Shown in pieces: positions 27,329 through 63,145 of a stretch of 64,000 nt of DNA. Location: the IMG/VR virus record IMGVR_UViG_3300035703_000046, positions 27,315 through 91,314 of that record. One strand, given 5' to 3'. Origin of the DNA: a virus. The notes under the pieces were generated by a model. The model saw only the letters and a program-made list of their open reading frames with translations, was not told the DNA's origin and did no database searches. Numbering within the stretch: the stretch's first letter is position 1; each line of letters starts with the position of its first letter. The position numbers and the translations under genes are program-made.

Positions 27329-27781
27329 TTATCCTTTTAAAATATCCGGTAGCACTACGCCATTTAAATGATCTATTTCATGTTGAATGCATACTGCTGG
27401 AAGCCCAGTTGCTATAAATTTTTTAGGAGAACCAAGAAAATTTTCAACTTTTATTTCTTGATACCTTTTAGTTCTTCCAGACATCCCAGGAAATGACAGG
27501 CACCCCTCTCCATCAAATATGGAGAGATCATATTTCTCAATAATATTTGGATTTACTAAATCTGCGTAAAAATAATTAGATCCTACTTTGATTCTAATTA
27601 TTGCCATTTTTTTAGCAATTCCAATTTGAGGACAAGCTAGCCCTATTCCTGGGAAGCCATTCTTTTCAGTTAATTTAAGAGCGCTTTCTAATAGATTTCG
27701 TAAATCATCGATTTCACTGGGTAGAACAGGCTCTGAATTTAAACCTAAATTTCGTACCTGTTCTTCATCCGTGAGAATCAT
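27329..27781 (-). CDS. def: Peptide deformylase
   Basis: GIGLACPQIG, EGCLS and QHEIDHLNG motifs. Confidence 0.96.
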   Translation of the reverse strand: MILTDEEQVRNLGLNSEPVLPSEIDDLRNLLESALKLTEKNGFPGIGLACPQIGIAKKMAIIRIKVGSNYFYADLVNPNIIEKYDLSIFDGEGCLSFPGMSGRTKRYQEIKVENFLGSPKKFIATGLPAVCIQHEIDHLNGVVLPDILKG

Positions 27782-28341
27782 GACTTCATCAAATTAAGAG
27801 TTAGCTCTTTGCCTTCCCAGGAAATTTCTCCATCAATTTTAAAAGAATTCTCTGGGAGATAACTCAAAAATTGTTCAAGCGTCTTGGTTCCGACTTCTTG
27901 ATGAGTAATTGCCCTTCCGGCAAAGAGTATTGCAACTTTCACTCTAAGATTATCTTGTAGAAATTTATTAGCTTGTTTTGCTTTAATTTCTAGATCGTGA
28001 TTTCCGGTTGTAGGCTTAAATTTAACTTCTTTAATTTTGATGGCAGATTCTCGCTGCTTACGATCTGCTTCTTTTTTCTTTTTAGAAGTTTCATATTTAA
28101 ACTTACTAAAATCCATAATTTTGCAAGTAGGAGGTCGATCTTTTGATGGTGGACTTAGCTGAACCAGATCAAGCCCTTGTTCTTGAGCGAGTTTTAGAGC
28201 ATCTTTTGTAATTAAAAGACCCAAATTTTGGTCATCTGAATTAATGCAGATGACTTTTGGAACACGAATATTAAAATTAATAAACCAACGGTCACGGTCA
28301 CGGTCACGGTCACGGTCAATGTTTGATTTCATAAAGTGAAT
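27778..28341 (-). CDS. infC: Translation initiation factor IF3 (probable ATT start at 28341; in-frame ATG at 28332)
   Basis: INFNIRVPKV, GLDLV, PPTCKIMDFSKFKYE, KEVKF, HDLEIK; TAGGAG SD 6 nt before an in-frame ATT. Confidence 0.95.
   Translation of the reverse strand: MHFMKSNIDRDRDRDRDRWFINFNIRVPKVICINSDDQNLGLLITKDALKLAQEQGLDLVQLSPPSKDRPPTCKIMDFSKFKYETSKKKKEADRKQRESAIKIKEVKFKPTTGNHDLEIKAKQANKFLQDNLRVKVAILFAGRAITHQEVGTKTLEQFLSYLPENSFKIDGEISWEGKELTLNLMKS
28288..28317. repeat. Perfect hexamer microsatellite (ACGGTC)x5 encoding (DR)5 in the IF3 N-terminus
   Basis: Read directly from the sequence. Confidence 0.95.
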
Positions 28342-32597: not shown

Positions 32598-33233
32598 TTA
32601 GCTTATATTAATTGAAATAGATATTGGAAGTCTTTTAATAACTAAAATTTTATCAGGATTTAAATTATTTTGAAAAATTAAATCTGCTAATTTAGCTTTT
32701 ATACTTTCTTCATCTGTAGATGAAAAAAGTACTTGATTTTCAGCTATAATAACAATTTCATTCGAAGATAGCTGATCTAAAGAAGTTGGAGGCTCATATT
32801 CTTTTGATTTTTGAGCTGATTCGGAAAAATTATCTTTATTTTTACTAGGATTTGAATTTTCAAAATTAATTTGTTTTTTTGCAGCTTCTTCATAGAGAAT
32901 TTCTAGCTCTTCCGAAGTTAGGTCTTCTCTTATCAAATTATCATCATATACAGGTCTTTCTGATAGCGGCTCATCATAAAATTTTGTTTGCTTGTTCCAG
33001 CCAATATCTTGTTGTCCTACGGAAGGAACTGTGACTTTAGGTGATAGTTGAAGCTCTTTTATTACCTGATTTCTTAAAGTTGCTTGATGCTCAGGTAGGT
33101 CAGTTGCCGCTTCAATTCCTTTAAGCTTTCCTTCTGCCATAAGGCGCTGCCATTCAGGCACATATGGTTCTTGAACCATTTGCGCCCGAACAGCACGAGC
33201 TGGATTCTTAATAAGAAATTCTTTTTTATTCAT
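32598..33233 (-). CDS. Hypothetical protein
   Basis: 211-aa ORF coupled to rpsU. Confidence 0.6.
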   Translation of the reverse strand: MNKKEFLIKNPARAVRAQMVQEPYVPEWQRLMAEGKLKGIEAATDLPEHQATLRNQVIKELQLSPKVTVPSVGQQDIGWNKQTKFYDEPLSERPVYDDNLIREDLTSEELEILYEEAAKKQINFENSNPSKNKDNFSESAQKSKEYEPPTSLDQLSSNEIVIIAENQVLFSSTDEESIKAKLADLIFQNNLNPDKILVIKRLPISISINIS

Positions 33234-33559
33234 TGGCGGTCGTCTGAAGAAGACTTTTTCTTTCTTTCTTCCATCTTCTTATTCTTGCGAGCTTCTTTTC
33301 TGGCTTGGATTTTATCCCATTCTCCACTAAGAATTTGCTGTTCTCGCAATTTAGTTAACATTGCTTTTTGAATAGCTTCTCGCTTTTTTCTTCGCTTTTT
33401 ATCAGAAGGTTTTTCGTATCTCTGTTTTTCTTTATATTCTGAAATAATTTTTTCTTTTTGAATTAAAGACTTAAATTTTCTAAAAGCATCTTCAAAGTCA
33501 TTATCATGAACTTTAACTTCCAACCCTCTAAACTGAAGTAAATCTCCAGGTATTGCCAT
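33230..33559 (-). CDS. rpsU: Ribosomal protein bS21 with C-terminal extension
   Basis: VKVHDNDFEDAFRKFK..EYKEKQRYEKPSDKKRRKKREA. Confidence 0.92.
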   Translation of the reverse strand: MAIPGDLLQFRGLEVKVHDNDFEDAFRKFKSLIQKEKIISEYKEKQRYEKPSDKKRRKKREAIQKAMLTKLREQQILSGEWDKIQARKEARKNKKMEERKKKSSSDDRQ

Positions 33560-44023: not shown

Positions 44024-44750
44024 TGTTATAAGCCCTTCCTATAGCTTGATATACATCCTCTCTTCCATTTTGACCAAATAAAACAGAAGTTAATTTTCCA
44101 GAAGTAAATACACCAGTGTCTATATTGCAAGAATAATTGTAAAACATCGGACCTTTTAAATTGTTGTCATGCCCCGATACAATATATCCAAATCGACCGT
44201 CGTAAAATTTATGCCAAACAGAAACGTTTTTATCAGAAGAAACATAAGATGTTTTACCATCAATTTCTTGCTTTTTTAACATAACTTTTTCCTTTGTTTC
44301 ATTTGACAAATTTCTAATATAACAAAGATTTAAATTATGAGTTAAATCTTTCCAAGTCATTTTAGGCTCTACTCCCGCATGAATAGCAGTGTATCTGCTT
44401 GAATTTGGGTATACAAAAGAAAGAGACAATGGCTGCTGCTCCACCCAATGCAATATTGGGGGCATATTACCATTTTTTCTATATTTTTTTATATTTTTTA
44501 ATTCATGATTGCCTTTAATAAAAAAGGCGTTCCCCTGATCGGATAAATCTTTAATCTTATGTAAGATAGCTAGCCCTTCATTAATTCCATAACCTTTATC
44601 TAAGACATCACCACATACAACTAATTTTAATTTATCTGAAATTTTGAACTTATTAATAATAGTATTAAACTGGTCGGAATGCTCATGAATATCACTAACA
44701 AAAAGTAATTTTGTGTCTGAGTTTATTTTTATATTTAAAGTTATATCCAT
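44004..44750 (-). CDS. Metallophosphoesterase resembling PrpE / the bacterial Pnkp phosphatase domain
   Basis: SDIH, GDVLDKG, GNHE, HAG, W..Y.G..IVSGH, NIDTG...GKLT. Confidence 0.82.
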   Translation of the reverse strand: MDITLNIKINSDTKLLFVSDIHEHSDQFNTIINKFKISDKLKLVVCGDVLDKGYGINEGLAILHKIKDLSDQGNAFFIKGNHELKNIKKYRKNGNMPPILHWVEQQPLSLSFVYPNSSRYTAIHAGVEPKMTWKDLTHNLNLCYIRNLSNETKEKVMLKKQEIDGKTSYVSSDKNVSVWHKFYDGRFGYIVSGHDNNLKGPMFYNYSCNIDTGVFTSGKLTSVLFGQNGREDVYQAIGRAYNNEQSTT

Positions 44751-44766
44751 AATTAAGCATCCTGAT

Positions 44767-45216
44767 ATGAATCACGAAAAATTATTATCTTGGTATTTGG
44801 GTCATCTCAGGTTTCTATATCTAATGTATCAGAATTGTCACTGGCAATGCTCTGGTCTTTCTTTCTATCAACATCATTTACTCTTTCAAAGATTATATGA
44901 AGGAGTATTGGGAGATATTGATGTTGCAGCTGAAAAAATAATAGGAGTTTTTGATTCAAAAATTATTGAATTAGACTCTCAAATTAAAATTATGAAAATG
45001 CTAGGAGAGAAATTTGCAATTGACTCTTCTGCTCCTATTACATGTTTTAAAACTGCAATAGATGCCGAAAAAGGATTTCAAAAAATTGCAGCAGCTCTTA
45101 GAAAAGAGCTAGAATCAAACAACGACCTAACCTTGGGAGTTGATGACATGCTTGCAGCACAGTCTAGTTCATCTGAAGAAAGACTATATTTACTCAAATC
45201 ATCATTGCCAGAGTGA
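44767..45216 (+). CDS. Dps/ferritin-like protein
   Basis: HWQCSG.SFYQHHLLFQRLYE..IDVAAEK matches the Dps ferroxidase pattern; ATG at 44767 preferred over the track start at 44713. Confidence 0.8.
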   Translation: MNHEKLLSWYLGHLRFLYLMYQNCHWQCSGLSFYQHHLLFQRLYEGVLGDIDVAAEKIIGVFDSKIIELDSQIKIMKMLGEKFAIDSSAPITCFKTAIDAEKGFQKIAAALRKELESNNDLTLGVDDMLAAQSSSSEERLYLLKSSLPE

Positions 45217-45259
45217 AAAAAAAGAAGGTGACCATGGGTCATAAAACCCATGGTCACCT
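45217..45259 (-). terminator. Strong intrinsic terminator (14-bp stem)
   Basis: AGGTGACCATGGGT/ACCCATGGTCACCT with a 6-nt loop, followed by TCTTTTTTT on the minus strand. Confidence 0.8.
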
Positions 45260-45324
45260 GAGAGTAAGAAGAACCAAATATTCCACGTTGCGGTTCACCT
45301 CCTAAAGTGGTGGATAATACTTGG
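45254..45324 (-). other. Structured element with sequestered perfect SD and 10-codon minigene (candidate sRNA/leader)
   Basis: AGGAGGTGA (45303-45295); GTG at 45286 gives MEYLVLLTLR*; enclosed by CCAAGTATT/AATATTTGG and TCCAC/GTGGA pairings. Confidence 0.4.
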
Positions 45325-45355
45325 CATCGATCTCGTCAATTCAAGAAATTTTGAC

Positions 45356-45589
45356 TCAATCGTCTTCTTGTCGAGCAACAAAGTGATCTGTTACAGATCT
45401 TTGTAACTCGAAAAAAATATTTATATTTTCTGCACTAGATATTAAAGATAAATAGTACAAAACTTCTCCATATTCCTTATTATTCAAGGAAGAGATTGCT
45501 TTAATTGCAGCCTCTTCTGAAGATATTTTTTCTTCAGAAGAGACTTTTTCAGCATAGTGCCATAAATCTTCAAATCTGGTAAATTTCAT
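45356..45589 (-). CDS. Small protein, weak MazG-like pattern
   Basis: EYGEVLYYLSLIS..ENINI resembles the MazG ExGD/E helix. Confidence 0.45.
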   Translation of the reverse strand: MKFTRFEDLWHYAEKVSSEEKISSEEAAIKAISSLNNKEYGEVLYYLSLISSAENINIFFELQRSVTDHFVARQEDD

Positions 45590-46089
45590 GTTGTTACAGA
45601 AGCAGTATCCAATGATAGAGTTTCTACATTTTCTAGCTCAGCAGATGCAATAACTTTTGAATCTGCCGCTGGTACAACTCTTCTTTTTCTAACAGGTCGA
45701 TCAATCTTACTTGATTGATCGATTCTTCCCACAATTTGAAGCTCTTCCTTGCCTTCCTTTGATAGGAACGCAAGGAAGCTAACATCAGAGCAATCAATAT
45801 TAAAATTAGCTTTTAATTTTGCAACATAAAATCTATTACCATAAGAATCTTGTCTTTTATCTAGACGAACTTTAATTCTATCATCTTTTCTATAAAATGT
45901 AGAATAGTGACCGGTATCATTATCTAAATTGGCAATCTGCAATTCTTCATTACCATCTTCAGATGTAAAGATCAAAAATGCGGCTCCTCTTTTTAAATTT
46001 AGAGTCAATGGTCCAGACTTCTTGCTTAAATAATAAATCTGTTGATCTTTATCTTCGCGAGGGTCCAATTCAATTTTAAAATTTGACAT
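45586..46089 (-). CDS. Hypothetical protein made of two tandem homologous domains
   Basis: FLIFTSEDGNEELQI versus FLAFLSKEGKEELQI. Confidence 0.65.
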   Translation of the reverse strand: MSNFKIELDPREDKDQQIYYLSKKSGPLTLNLKRGAAFLIFTSEDGNEELQIANLDNDTGHYSTFYRKDDRIKVRLDKRQDSYGNRFYVAKLKANFNIDCSDVSFLAFLSKEGKEELQIVGRIDQSSKIDRPVRKRRVVPAADSKVIASAELENVETLSLDTASVTT

Positions 46090-46167: not shown

Positions 46168-46968
46168 TCATTCTTCAGATATTCTGATGATATCTTTTCC
46201 ATTCAATAAAATATTGAATAAAAAGTCTTTATTGTCCGCTAAGTATGGAATTTCCAAGTTAACGGACCACTTGTTTCTTGCAAAAGTTTCATTAGCGCCA
46301 TCTATGAGCATAGGCGTTCTATATGCGGCAATTCCATTATAAAAATAAGATGGATAATATTCGTGAAAATTAATCCCAGCATATTTTAATAATAATTCTT
46401 GTTTTTCTTCAACAGTTTTGCCTTGAATTAAATCAAAAGCTTTCTTTTGACCTACTTTTTTAGTAATTTCATGAATAGCAGCTAATCTCAAAGCTGATTT
46501 GTAACATTCTTGCTGTCGATAAATTATATAATTAGATGCTTCAGAAAGATTAGGAACAGCCCAGACATGAGATTTAAATATAGGATCTCCAGATAATTCT
46601 GACTCCAAATCCAAAGCAAAAGCAAGCTTGTAAAAGCCAAGGGTAAAAATAGAAGCCGCAGAAGATGCAATTTGTTGAATTTTATTATTCAACCAGGGCT
46701 CAGTCTCAAATGATTGATCGTTTCTGATAATAATAGAAACCTCATCGGCAAAACTAAATCCAAAAATAGAGCCTTGAATTTCTGTAATCGTATACAGCAA
46801 AGCATCAGACATAACTTTGCTTAAATGACTAGAATAAGGCTTGGGAAGATTTTTAGTTATTTTAGAAAAATTTCTACCATCAATATGGATAATTAAAGGC
46901 AATCTTTTCATGATTTCAAAATCATAAGAAGATTTATATGATTCTTGTCTTTCCCACAAAGGTTGCAT
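46168..46968 (-). CDS. thg1: tRNA(His) guanylyltransferase / Thg1-like 3'-5' polymerase
   Basis: IHIDGRNFSKIT, FADEVS, W.NNKIQ, SAAS, F..HV..VP, YIIYRQ. Confidence 0.9.
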   Translation of the reverse strand: MQPLWERQESYKSSYDFEIMKRLPLIIHIDGRNFSKITKNLPKPYSSHLSKVMSDALLYTITEIQGSIFGFSFADEVSIIIRNDQSFETEPWLNNKIQQIASSAASIFTLGFYKLAFALDLESELSGDPIFKSHVWAVPNLSEASNYIIYRQQECYKSALRLAAIHEITKKVGQKKAFDLIQGKTVEEKQELLLKYAGINFHEYYPSYFYNGIAAYRTPMLIDGANETFARNKWSVNLEIPYLADNKDFLFNILLNGKDIIRISEE

Positions 46969-50505: not shown

Positions 50506-50537
50506 AAATTCCTTAATGAAAAAGAAGTTCGCTATTA

Positions 50538-50565
50538 AGCATAGCTCTGTCAGCTACCCCGTCAA
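50538..50565 (-). promoter_or_regulatory. Sigma70-type promoter for the helicase gene
   Basis: TTGACG-N16-TATGCT; the -35 overlaps the TGA of the upstream HAD gene. Confidence 0.6.
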
Positions 50566-55780: not shown

Positions 55781-56235
55781 TTAATGCTGCAATTATAAAT
55801 AAGTTTTGCCCGGTCTCTCATATAACCATATCCAGGTCTATACTCATCCCCATGCTTCATAAGATGGCTAATTATAATTGGAATATAACATGTATTACTT
55901 AATTCCTTTGCCGCCCAACAATCAGTAGCCATTTCATCTGTCCCATGAATATAATGACCATATTCATGCACATAGGCAAAATGTGTGACCCCAGGCGTTT
56001 CTTTTTCTAGCCTTGCAGCTACTTCGGAGCACCAGTAAATCCCATTGGTCATAGCTACTGCAACATCTCCCTCAGTGACTTTACAATCCTCATAAATAGG
56101 AATATTTTTCAAATTTCCATATGGAACCCACGGGTCACAAGAAAGACCTTCAGCATTAACGCTAGTGGTAAGCGTCAAACTAGAAAATGCAATAAAAGAA
56201 ATTAGAGATAATAGTGTTTTCACAGCTTTGACCAA
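55777..56235 (-). CDS. Small exported zincin-like protein (paralog 1)
   Basis: Signal peptide ending VNA; YVHEYGHY..E..DCWAAK; YGYMRDRA shared with the neighbour. Confidence 0.7.
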   Translation of the reverse strand: MVKAVKTLLSLISFIAFSSLTLTTSVNAEGLSCDPWVPYGNLKNIPIYEDCKVTEGDVAVAMTNGIYWCSEVAARLEKETPGVTHFAYVHEYGHYIHGTDEMATDCWAAKELSNTCYIPIIISHLMKHGDEYRPGYGYMRDRAKLIYNCSIK

Positions 56236-56254
56236 CGCTCTTCTTACATCAGAG

Positions 56255-56283
56255 ATGTTAGCTCAGGGGAGTTTTCTTGTCAA
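56255..56283 (-). promoter_or_regulatory. Sigma70-type promoter for the zincin pair
   Basis: TTGACA-N17-TAACAT. Confidence 0.65.
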
Positions 56284-56296
56284 GAGAAAAAATAAT

Positions 56297-60793: not shown

Positions 60794-60830
60794 AAAAAAA
60801 ACTCCTTAATTATTTTCTCAGGTTAATAGA

Positions 60831-60859
60831 ATTATAATGCTAGAAAATTAACCCGTCAA
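60831..60859 (-). promoter_or_regulatory. Sigma70 consensus promoter for rIIB
   Basis: TTGACG-N17-TATAAT; the -35 overlaps the rIIA TGA stop. Confidence 0.75.
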
Positions 60860-63036: not shown

Positions 63037-63086
63037 ATCACTCTCTTTACGTCAATACATCTGATGACCGCCATCAGATGCACTCC

Positions 63087-63114
63087 AACATAACCCGCCA
63101 AGTTTGCATGTCAA
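63087..63114 (-). promoter_or_regulatory. Sigma70-type promoter for rIIA
   Basis: TTGACA-N16-TATGTT followed by a leader inverted repeat. Confidence 0.65.
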
Positions 63115-63145
63115 GCGCAGCTACGTTGGAGCTTTAATCAATCGA

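What the first reader, a model, noticed from the sequence alone, without database searches (positions are those of the whole stretch)
45217..45339. Structured intergenic RNA with a sequestered perfect Shine-Dalgarno, a 10-codon minigene and a strong terminator; the other strand mimics the 16S 3' end
Seen on the minus strand: TTGACG (45339-45334) and TATTAT (45319-45314, spacing only 14), then CCAAGTATT-ATCCAC-CACTT TAGG AGGTG-AACCGCAAC-GTGGA-ATATTTGG. This can fold as nested stems burying AGGAGGTGA (the best SD I noticed in the window) and the GTG of MEYLVLLTLR*, whose stop lies in the 5' arm of a 14-bp terminator. No long gene follows this SD. The plus strand reads TGCGGTT-CACCTCCT, similar to the 16S 3' tail (TGCGGTTGGATCACCTCCT). 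Inference: in a phage encoding bS21 and IF3, this may be a 30S decoy, an anti-SD sRNA silencing strong-SD host mRNAs, or a type-I-toxin-like or attenuator micropeptide.
Basis: partly seen in the sequence, partly recalled or inferred. Interest (0 to 1): 0.7.

Follow-up and report, generated by a model that had tools for sequence, protein, structure and literature searches.

The report
Orphaned ribosome-binding hairpin of a lost gene
This folded RNA with a very strong ribosome-binding site is the start region of a small secreted zinc-protease-like gene that related giant phages still have; this phage lost the gene but has kept the hairpin almost unchanged, so the RNA probably has a job of its own.

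Summary
On the minus strand, 45367-45216 folds into a 5-bp mini-hairpin, a long irregular hairpin and a 15-bp intrinsic terminator. The long hairpin carries AGGAGGTGA.

In two related phage lineages (L002/L001 and L014), the same leader, SD and an ATG start a 186-194-aa gene for a signal-peptide HExxH zincin-like protein. In the window's clade (window/L011, L012, L013) the gene body is replaced by a terminator and ATG has become ACG.

The roughly 100-nt leader is still about 90% identical, although four-fold sites in the flanking genes are near saturation and a control spacer cannot be aligned. The stems show compensatory changes. G·U pairs favour the minus strand.

Not supported:
- The 10-codon minigene is not conserved (8 to more than 40 codons).
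- The TATTAT -10 box is not conserved.
- The plus-strand "16S mimic" is the SD complement plus one 7-mer.

Best reading: an orphaned translation-initiation hairpin kept as a functional RNA at the 3' end of the upstream operon. It probably works through 30S or factor docking on its invariant loop. No transcript data were informative.

The scan has noted comparable orphan extended-SD RNAs on other giant lake phages. Those notes are unchecked and not sequence-similar to this element.

The parts
45266..45367 (-). Conserved non-coding element. It begins in the last three sense codons (plus stop) of the 77-aa gene and runs through the U-rich tract. It occurs once per genome.
   Evidence: Mean column identity is 91% over 5 distinct sequences. 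Covariance model R1 finds one copy each in G000, G001 and G002. Four-fold sites in flanking genes are 0.33-0.65 identical, and a control spacer cannot be aligned.
45335..45355 (-). Mini-hairpin GUCAA-N11-UUGAC.
   Evidence: The 5 pairs are invariant in all 5 sequences, so there is no covariation evidence either way.
45266..45334 (-). Long irregular hairpin. AAGAUCGAUG pairs with the UUCUUCUU tract. Inside that are a 9-bp outer stem (45324-45316 with 45282-45274) and the inner CCAC/GUGG stem (45313-45310 with 45286-45283). The apical loop carries the SD.
   Evidence: Of 20 pairs, 94% of cells are paired, against 38-48% when partners are slid. Three pairs show double compensatory changes (47-91, 50-88, 51-87). 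G.U pairs favour the minus strand.
45295..45303 (-). Extended Shine-Dalgarno sequence AGGAGGTGA, invariant in all relatives.
   Evidence: -16.1 kcal/mol; 0 of 83 ORF starts reach -10. It is the only non-coding copy in G000 and G001.
45286..45288 (-). ACG at the position of the ATG start codon of the HExxH gene in L002/L001 and L014. It is ACG in all gene-less genomes whose sequence covers this position (window, L012, L013; L011 ends upstream of it).
   Evidence: Alignments; translations.
45254..45286 (-). It is in a different frame from the ancestral ATG and is not conserved in length.
   Evidence: Relatives give 27, more than 40, 13 and 8 codons (sequences).
45216..45259 (-). Intrinsic terminator: 15-bp stem, 4-nt loop and a U-run. 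It replaces the body of the lost gene. The last T overlaps the stop codon of the convergent plus-strand gene.
   Evidence: The terminators in L012 and L013 are homologous, with compensatory changes in both arms.
45356..45589 (-). Upstream 77-aa ORF of unknown function, the last gene of the minus-strand run Thg1-like / 167-aa / 77-aa.
   Evidence: It is largely deleted in L014 while the element is kept.
44713..45216 (+). Convergent ferritin/DUF5856-like gene, which ends at the terminator's U-run.

Best explanation
The 'SD plus minigene' is the orphaned translation-initiation region of a lost gene. It comprises the leader, an extended SD and the first ~9 codons of a gene for a small secreted HExxH (zincin-like) protein.

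Shown:
- Two related phage lineages still start that gene here with ATG.
- In the window's clade the gene body was replaced once by an intrinsic terminator, and ATG became ACG.
- The ~100-nt leader has since stayed under purifying selection as a minus-strand RNA structure. It has invariant loops and flanks and compensating stems.
- The hairpin displays the extended SD in its apical loop and locks the start position in the stem.

Inferred:
- In gene-bearing phages it gates translation of the HExxH gene on read-through transcripts from the upstream operon.
- In this phage it is a non-coding 3'-terminal domain of the Thg1-like / 167-aa / 77-aa operon mRNA, ending at the terminator.
- Its retained activity is sequence-specific docking of a partner on the invariant loop. 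That partner is most likely a 30S subunit binding through the 9-nt SD, otherwise a protein.
- The downstream consequence is not established. It could be local control of termination and read-through, or titration of the partner.
For: Origin:
- L002/L001 and L014 have the same leader followed by ATG and a 186/194-aa ORF.
- The protein family is real. It has 84 homologues with invariant Cys34, Cys58, HExxH and Glu173, a model with pLDDT 89.8, and only weak zincin matches.
- Close homologues share the N-terminus MW[NS]xW[FL]F, which is encoded by the hairpin's 3' arm.
- The window, L012 and L013 share ACG, a second T>C change and homologous terminators. L011, near-identical to the window, is gene-less where its sequence is available but ends before these positions.

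Selection:
- The element is 82-97% identical outside the stem middle, against 0.33-0.65 at four-fold sites.
- The Thg1/167-aa spacer cannot be aligned in the same genomes.

Structure and strand:
- 95% of cells are paired, against 38-48% for slid controls. There are 3 doubly compensated pairs, and G.U pairs are valid only on the minus strand.
- The U-run terminator works only on the minus strand.

SD display:
- The SD is 0.36-0.75 unpaired. The GUG/UGG is 0.01-0.05 unpaired in four of the five sequences and 0.38 in L012.
- SD strength is unique.
- There is no conserved promoter, so read-through from the operon is the simplest source of the RNA.
Against: - There is no usable transcript evidence. 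Only assembled contigs were available, and the one true metatranscriptome had contigs in the flanking genes only.
- Only 5 distinct sequences are available, so covariation rests on 3 pairs.
- The polarity of gene loss versus gain is inferred, not rooted. The gene-bearing lineages L002 and L014 are about equidistant from the gene-less clade.
- The function in the gene-less state is not demonstrated.
- A GUG start remains 8 nt behind the SD, so translation into the terminator (the attenuator rival) is not excluded.
- Conservation could in principle act on DNA, as a protein-binding site, rather than on RNA.
Confidence: 0.55

Rival explanations
1. Ribosome-mediated attenuator. When the long hairpin is open, a ribosome starts at the buried GUG (45286) and runs into or through the terminator, which prevents hairpin formation. 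Transcription would then read on, antisense through the ferritin-like gene, towards the phosphatase operon. The element would couple read-through to translation-initiation capacity.
For: - The SD, GUG and a 5-6-nt linker to the terminator are kept in all three gene-less genomes.
- In the window the GUG-frame stop lies in the terminator's 5' arm. In L012 and L013 the frame runs through the terminator.
- The GUG is locked in the stem, so initiation would be conditional.
Against: - All three frames are open across the short linker, so the open frame carries no information.
- No alternative antiterminator fold was found.
- The better ATG start was lost.
- The next same-strand gene is about 470 nt away, behind a convergent gene.
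- There are no expression data.
Confidence: 0.13
2. Independent trans-acting small RNA that works as a 30S decoy or sponge. A transcript of about 100 nt with its own start displays an extended SD and ties up 30S subunits, possibly those lacking bS21. This would parallel the extended SD of rpsU in Bacteroidia.
For: - The architecture is sRNA-like: hairpin, U-rich linker, terminator and U tail. There is a sub-threshold Rfam match to the sRNA71 architecture (27.6 bits).
- The SD is stronger than -13 kcal/mol, and the phage encodes bS21 and IF3.
- PMC9976891 shows that extended SDs bind bS21-free Flavobacterium ribosomes tightly.
- Earlier scan notes report similar orphan SD RNAs in other giant lake phages. 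These are leads only.
Against: - There is no conserved -10 box. The phage's sigma-70-like promoters use 16-17-nt spacers.
- A Bacteroidota host is not indicated here. Phage genes are SD-enriched (40% against 10% in mock windows), the nearest cellular relatives of the IF3 are Omnitrophota and Planctomycetota, and the best bS21 matches are E. coli-like.
- A GUG start is present, so the RNA is not start-less.
- A single-copy RNA would need very high expression to titrate ribosomes.
Confidence: 0.15
3. Operator for a sequence-specific RNA-binding or DNA-binding protein, such as a translational repressor like the T4 gp43/RegA or MS2 coat systems. The protein once regulated the HExxH gene, and the site is kept as a binding site or decoy. 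Alternatively it is a DNA-level site using the GTCAA/TTGAC and GATCGATC-like dyads.
For: - Loop and flanks are invariant well beyond the SD (CCUAU..., GAAYCGCAAYG, AAGAUCGAUG).
- Hairpin operators that include the TIR are known in T4-type phages (PMC3014915).
Against: - No candidate binding protein was identified.
- The element occurs once per genome, so there is no regulon.
- G.U pairs and stem covariation argue for RNA rather than duplex DNA.
Confidence: 0.1
4. Plus-strand RNA that mimics the 16S 3' end (an anti-SD sRNA silencing strong-SD mRNAs), or a type-I-toxin-like micropeptide.
For: The plus strand reads TGCGGTT-CACCTCCT, and the plus-strand fold is also stable (z = -4.6).
Against: - CACCTCCT is forced by the SD, and the 7-mer is only 6/7 in L002 and L014.
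- The plus strand has no U-run terminator and no promoter.
- Three G.U pairs in the window become A.C on the plus strand.
- In gene-bearing relatives this strand is antisense to a whole gene.
- The minigene length varies from 8 to more than 40 codons, and the peptide is conserved only where the RNA stem dictates it.
Confidence: 0.03

Closest known systems
Inhibitory TIR hairpins of T4 genes e, soc, 49 and I-TevI (review PMC3014915)
   Same: A phage intercistronic hairpin contains the SD and start codon of an accessory gene, so read-through transcripts from upstream are poorly translated.
   Different: - No promoter could be found inside the 5' arm.
- The SD is displayed in the loop rather than buried.
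- In this genome the gene is gone while the hairpin stays conserved.
STAB-SD / SD-like mRNA stabilisers of Bacillus (cry3A; B. subtilis hbs, PMC5737220; review PMC7509114)
   Same: A strong SD-like sequence that serves no gene and is thought to act by binding a 30S subunit.
   Different: STAB-SD sits in the 5' UTR and blocks 5'-3' decay of the downstream cistron. This element sits at the 3' end of an operon, just before a terminator. The host and its RNases are unknown.
Extended SD of rpsU (bS21 autoregulation) in Bacteroidia (PMC9976891, PMC7797042)
   Same: Exceptionally strong SD-ASD pairing (stronger than -13 kcal/mol) in a system where bS21 is in play. The phage encodes bS21.
   Different: - Here the SD belonged to a zincin-like gene, not to rpsU.
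- The phage's other genes use ordinary SDs.
- The phage IF3 and bS21 do not point to a Bacteroidota host.
Leader-peptide / ribosome-mediated transcription attenuators (e.g. pyrBI-type coupling; from general knowledge)
   Same: A short translatable frame runs into an intrinsic terminator.
   Different: No alternative antiterminator structure, no conserved peptide and no adjacent regulated sense gene.
Rfam RF03534, Staphylococcus sRNA71
   Same: Same layout: a hairpin with a large loop, a linker containing UACUC, a GC-rich terminator and a U tail.
   Different: The score is 27.6 bits against a gathering score of 50 (E = 0.02), so this is a resemblance in architecture only.

Membership tests
T4-type TIR-sequestering hairpin | The SD and/or start codon of a real gene lies inside an RNA helix | tested here: inconclusive
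   This is met in relatives L002 and L014, where the start is buried, the SD sits in the loop and a 186/194-aa gene follows. It is not met in the window, which has no gene and ACG in place of ATG.
T4-type TIR-sequestering hairpin | A promoter inside or next to the 5' arm gives transcripts that cannot form the hairpin | tested here: not met
   The -35-like TTGACR is conserved, but the -10 candidates (TATTAT at 14 nt; TATCCA/TACCAC/TTCCAC/TGCCAC at 17 nt) are poor or not conserved. No ATATAGT-type motif is present.
STAB-SD mRNA stabiliser | SD-like sequence that initiates no conserved ORF | tested here: met
   ORFs behind the SD vary from 8 to more than 40 codons, and the ancestral ATG is lost.
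STAB-SD mRNA stabiliser | Located in the 5' UTR of the stabilised cistron | tested here: not met
   The element lies after the last gene of the operon, 5-6 nt before the terminator.
STAB-SD mRNA stabiliser | 30S binding protects the mRNA from 5'-3' exonuclease | not testable with these tools
   Needs half-life measurements and 30S binding assays in the unknown host.
Rfam RF03534 sRNA71 | Covariance-model score at or above the gathering threshold (50 bits) | tested here: not met
   27.6 bits, E = 0.02. No family reached its gathering score over the whole window except tRNA.
Type I toxin mRNA | Conserved small hydrophobic ORF | tested here: not met
   Peptide length and sequence are not conserved beyond what the RNA stem encodes.
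Leader-peptide transcription attenuator | A short ORF overlaps or invades the terminator | tested here: inconclusive
   This is true in the window, L012 and L013. However, all three frames are open across the 5-6-nt linker, so it carries no information.
Leader-peptide transcription attenuator | Mutually exclusive antiterminator structure and a regulated downstream sense gene | tested here: not met
   The MFE and centroid folds show only the long hairpin plus the terminator. The next minus-strand gene starts at 44750, behind the convergent ferritin-like gene.
rpsU-type extended SD (Bacteroidia bS21 autoregulation) | SD-ASD pairing stronger than about -13 kcal/mol | tested here: met
   -16.1 kcal/mol with a generic 16S tail using RNAduplex. 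This is a different method from the one in the paper.
rpsU-type extended SD (Bacteroidia bS21 autoregulation) | Bacteroidota host or phage in which other genes lack SDs | tested here: not met
   40% of ORF starts have an SD at or below -6 kcal/mol, against 10% in mock windows. The phage IF3 is nearest to Omnitrophota and Planctomycetota. The bS21 is nearest to E. coli-type chains. The host remains unresolved.
Intrinsic (Rho-independent) terminator | GC-rich stem followed directly by a U-run, with structure conserved and sequence free to vary | tested here: met
   15 pairs, 8 of them G-C, a 4-nt loop and TCTTTTTTTT. Arms in L012 and L013 compensate.
Zincin metallopeptidase (the lost gene, in relatives) | HExxH motif plus a third ligand on a zincin fold | tested here: inconclusive
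   HExxH and Glu173 are invariant in 48 sequences. Pfam hits are all below cut-off (SprT-like, DUF5700, M91). The best PDB fold matches are zincins (NleC, PPEP-1, selecase, Wss1), but E > 0.02 and TM is 0.45 or lower.

The most novel reading that the evidence does not exclude
After losing its gene, a translation-initiation region was exapted into a stand-alone ribosome-docking RNA. In this reading the phage, which also encodes bS21 and IF3, keeps an extended-SD hairpin to capture 30S subunits. It could either sense free initiation capacity at its terminator or compete with host mRNAs. This would be one instance of a wider, undescribed class of orphan super-SD RNAs in giant freshwater phages.
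Probability: 0.2. Interest if true: 0.75.

Novelty: new variant of a known kind. Interest (0 to 1): 0.45.

Why it matters
SD-containing hairpins at phage gene starts are textbook. One that survives the loss of its gene under strong purifying selection is unusual: its start codon is mutated while its loop stays invariant.

If the retained activity is 30S docking, this locus shows how a coding-gene leader can become a non-coding ribosome-binding RNA in a phage that already tampers with initiation through bS21 and IF3.

The locus also offers a natural experiment. Gene-bearing and gene-less relatives carry the same leader, which makes the question directly testable.

If the retained activity is only local, acting on the transcript 3' end, the finding is a well-documented but ordinary regulatory relic.

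Tried and rejected
**Searches that found nothing useful**
- Rfam at gathering thresholds found only tRNA-Thr. At E-value thresholds it gave only a sub-threshold sRNA71 match.
- BLASTN against the phage GenBank collection found no match.
- Three pattern scans of IMG/VR returned only the L001/L002 contigs plus chance hits: L006 and L007, L017-L020, and 79 loci that all scored nothing with model R1.
- Protein-based locus searches with the 77-aa, 167-aa, Thg1-like and ferritin-like proteins added only L011-L016.

**Expression data**
- Only Logan contigs were available.
- The real metatranscriptome X20 had contigs at 44978-45158 and 45911-46074 only.
- X15 (probably DNA) has a contig at 45208-45394.
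- Nothing can be said about transcription of the element, and absence is not shown.

**Ideas tested and dropped**
- Repeated promoter or PeSL-like cassette: rejected, because the element occurs once per genome.
- Trans targets: complementary 10-12-mers in the window are no more frequent than for shuffled queries. A full duplex scan timed out.
- Bacteroidota host, on the analogy of PMC9723584: not supported for this phage.
- Second AGGAGGTGA in G001: it lies inside a ClpP-like coding sequence.
- HExxH gene relocated elsewhere in the 91-kb record: not found, but the record is only 21% complete.

Full report
**Setting**

The window is part of a 91-kb fragment of a giant phage (CheckV completeness 21%, GC 32%). 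The finding lies in the 139-nt gap between two convergent genes. One is the last gene of a minus-strand run: Thg1-like (46168-46968), a 167-aa ORF, then a 77-aa ORF (45356-45589). The other is a plus-strand ferritin/DUF5856-like gene ending at 45216.

**The observation**

- The 136-nt stretch folds at -48 kcal/mol against -29 +/- 3.3 for shuffles (z = -5.8).
- The second hairpin is a canonical intrinsic terminator: 15 pairs, a 4-nt loop and TCTTTTTTTT.
- AGGAGGTGA pairs with a generic 16S tail at -16.1 kcal/mol. None of 83 ORF starts in the window reaches -10.
- It is the only non-coding copy in this record and in a related 301-kb record. The second copy there lies inside a ClpP-like coding sequence.
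- "Sequestered SD" needs correcting. The SD is about half unpaired here and mostly loop-exposed in relatives. The start position is what is locked in a stem.

**What it is derived from**

Five distinct relatives were found.

- IMG/VR contigs L001 and L002 are identical in this region; one contig is 301 kb.
- Metagenome contigs L011 (near-identical to the window), L012, L013 and L014 came.
- In L002 and L014 the same leader, the same SD and an ATG open a 186-aa or 194-aa ORF.
- In the window, L012 and L013 the homologous position reads ACG. Homology ends after the U-rich tract, about 9 codons in, and a terminator follows instead of the gene. L011 is gene-less where it overlaps but its contig ends before the ACG.
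- The three terminators are homologous to one another, with compensatory changes in both arms. This indicates a single old replacement event.

The lost gene belongs to a real family.

- It has 84 homologues of about 200 aa with N-terminal signal-like segments.
- Cys34, Cys58, HExxH and Glu173 are invariant.
- Pfam hits (SprT-like, DUF5700, M91) are all below cut-off.
- The model is confident (pLDDT 89.8), but its best PDB neighbours are zincin proteases at non-significant scores.
- The closest homologues share MW[NS]xW[FL]F, the residues encoded by the hairpin's 3' arm.
- Distant homologues in other huge phages (L192, L193) have ordinary signal peptides and ordinary leaders.

Its length is 10, 27, more than 40, 13 and 8 codons in the five sequences. 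It is therefore not a conserved peptide.

**It is not a decaying relic**

- Flanking proteins are 59-89% identical between lineages (96% between L012 and L013). Their four-fold degenerate sites are 0.33-0.65 identical in the 167-aa gene, which is close to saturation for this composition, and 0.31-0.75 in the shorter 77-aa gene.
- The Thg1/167-aa spacer of the same genomes cannot be aligned apart from its SD and start.
- In contrast, the ~100-nt element has 91% mean column identity.
- Outside ten hypervariable stem columns it is 82-97% identical in every pair. This includes pairs within the gene-less clade. P ranges from 4.5e-4 to 1e-12, even against a neutral identity of 0.65.
- Conservation starts inside the last codons of the 77-aa gene. 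It persists in L014, where that gene is largely deleted.
- Model R1 finds exactly one copy per genome, so this is not a repeated promoter or cassette joint.

**Structure and strand**

The variable columns are the two sides of the outer stem.

- Three pairs change on both sides: A-U/G-C, A-U/C-G and U-A/C-G.
- The AAGAUCGAUG stretch upstream pairs with the UUCUUCUU tract downstream, giving a helix of about 69 nt.
- Of the 25 pairs in the full model (20 in this helix plus the 5 of the mini-hairpin), 95% of cells are paired, against 38-48% when partners are slid.
- G.U pairs (43-95 in four of five sequences; 34-102 and 48-90 in the window) would be A.C on the plus strand.
- Only the minus strand has the U-run.
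- The apical loop and the 5' flank are invariant. The loop is CC(C)UAU-AGGAGGUGA-AYCGCAAYG.
- All gene-less genomes whose sequence covers the loop (window, L012, L013) share the same two U>C changes, one of which is the start codon.

With five sequences this is supportive, not conclusive.

**Promoter, plus strand and Rfam**

- The phage has clear sigma-70-like promoters elsewhere (TTGAC[AG], 16-17 nt, TAnnnT) in spacers 50506-50561, 56053-56296, 60794-60855 and 63037-63145.
- At the element only the -35-like hexamer is conserved, and it is also the 3' arm of the mini-hairpin.
The 17-nt alternatives lack the -7 T.
- The plus-strand resemblance to the 16S 3' end is the SD complement plus TGCGGTT, which reads TGCGATT in L002 and L014. 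My rough estimate for a 6-of-7 match at any of 7 offsets is about 1%.
- The Rfam match to sRNA71 reflects shared layout only (27.6 bits against a gathering score of 50).

**Host context**

Freshwater bS21-encoding huge phages have been assigned to Bacteroidetes hosts (PMC9723584). In Flavobacterium only rpsU carries an extended SD, which bS21-free ribosomes translate (PMC9976891). That paper even speculates about a phage protease acting on host bS21. The parallel is tempting, but this phage does not fit it well.

- Its genes are SD-enriched: 40% reach -6 kcal/mol or stronger, against 10% in mock windows.
- Its IF3 is nearest to Omnitrophota and Planctomycetota (35-47% identity). That scan is biased by its peptide patterns.
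- Its bS21 (window 33230-33559) matches E. coli-type chains best.
- The host is unresolved.

**Mechanism**

Shown:
- The origin as a gene's initiation region.
- The single replacement by a terminator.
- Purifying selection on sequence and structure.
- Minus-strand polarity.
- An SD displayed in the loop with the start position locked in the stem.

Inferred:
- The RNA is made by read-through from the upstream operon.
- In gene-bearing phages it gates translation, as in T4 genes e, soc, 49 and I-TevI (PMC3014915).
- In this phage it is a non-coding 3' domain whose invariant loop still docks its partner, most simply a 30S subunit.

I cannot decide between three outcomes: a purely local effect, a ribosome running from the residual GUG into the terminator, or titration of a trans-acting factor. 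No transcript data were informative. `look-up of encoding contigs` was closed, which blocked a larger comparative set.

**Earlier scan notes**

Several unchecked notes describe orphan extended-SD RNAs in other giant lake phages, mostly read as rpsU mimics. They share no sequence words with this element. I treat them as a sign that the phenomenon may recur, not as support. What this locus adds is a documented origin from a coding-gene leader, in a phage context that does not look Bacteroidota-like.

**Verdict**

The element is a new variant of a known kind, a TIR hairpin turned orphan but conserved RNA. Interest is moderate.

Noticed in passing
window 50506-50561, 56053-56296, 60794-60855, 63037-63145 (minus strand): Four spacers carry clear sigma-70-like promoters (TTGAC[AG], 16-17 nt, TAnnnT; one is TTGACG-17-TATAAT). 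The phage therefore appears to use host-type promoters for part of its genes.
   Followed up: partly
window, e.g. 46159, 54881, 33763, 26966, 45189 (minus strand): The motif ATATAGT[TC] is strand-biased: 13 copies on the gene-rich minus strand against 4 on the plus strand. It sits upstream of the 167-aa gene, upstream of tRNA-Thr, and 30 nt after the terminator described here. It is a candidate phage-specific (middle or late) promoter.
   Followed up: partly
whole window: About 40% of ORF starts have an SD at or below -6 kcal/mol, against 10% in mock windows, but none reaches -10. Gene SDs are uniformly moderate (GGAG/AAGGAG), which makes the 9-nt SD of the element stand out.
   Followed up: yes
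window 27778-28332 (-): The nearest cellular relatives of the phage IF3 in a pattern-based scan of GTDB genomes are Omnitrophota and Planctomycetota MAGs (35-47% identity). None are Bacteroidota. This is a hint about host or gene donor that differs from published bS21-phage host calls.
   Followed up: partly
L014:2565-2632: In this relative the 77-aa gene is reduced to a 16-codon remnant, yet the conserved element begins at the same GAAGACGRTTGAGTC. The element's 5' boundary is therefore independent of that gene.
   Followed up: partly
L002:3478-4038 (-), L014:2697-3281 (+), L192:1405-2049, L193:1300-1878: This is an uncharacterised family of ~200-aa signal-peptide HExxH proteins with two invariant Cys, found in huge phages (84 homologues). 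The AlphaFold model is confident (pLDDT 89.8), but there is no significant PDB neighbour and no Pfam family.
   Followed up: partly
window 45512-45542: A perfect 12-bp inverted repeat with a 7-nt loop lies inside the 77-aa coding sequence (encoding SSEEKISSEE). The scan flagged it as terminator-like on the plus strand.
   Followed up: no
window 45586-46089 (-): The conserved 167-aa protein shows an internal duplication (...FLIFTSEDGNEELQIANLD... / ...FLAFLSKEGKEELQIVGRID...) followed by a basic tail. It has no Pfam match.
   Followed up: no
L002:3478-3492: In gene-bearing relatives the HExxH gene and the convergent ferritin-like gene overlap by 15 nt at their 3' ends, with no terminator between them. 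The strong terminator exists only in the gene-less clade.
   Followed up: partly
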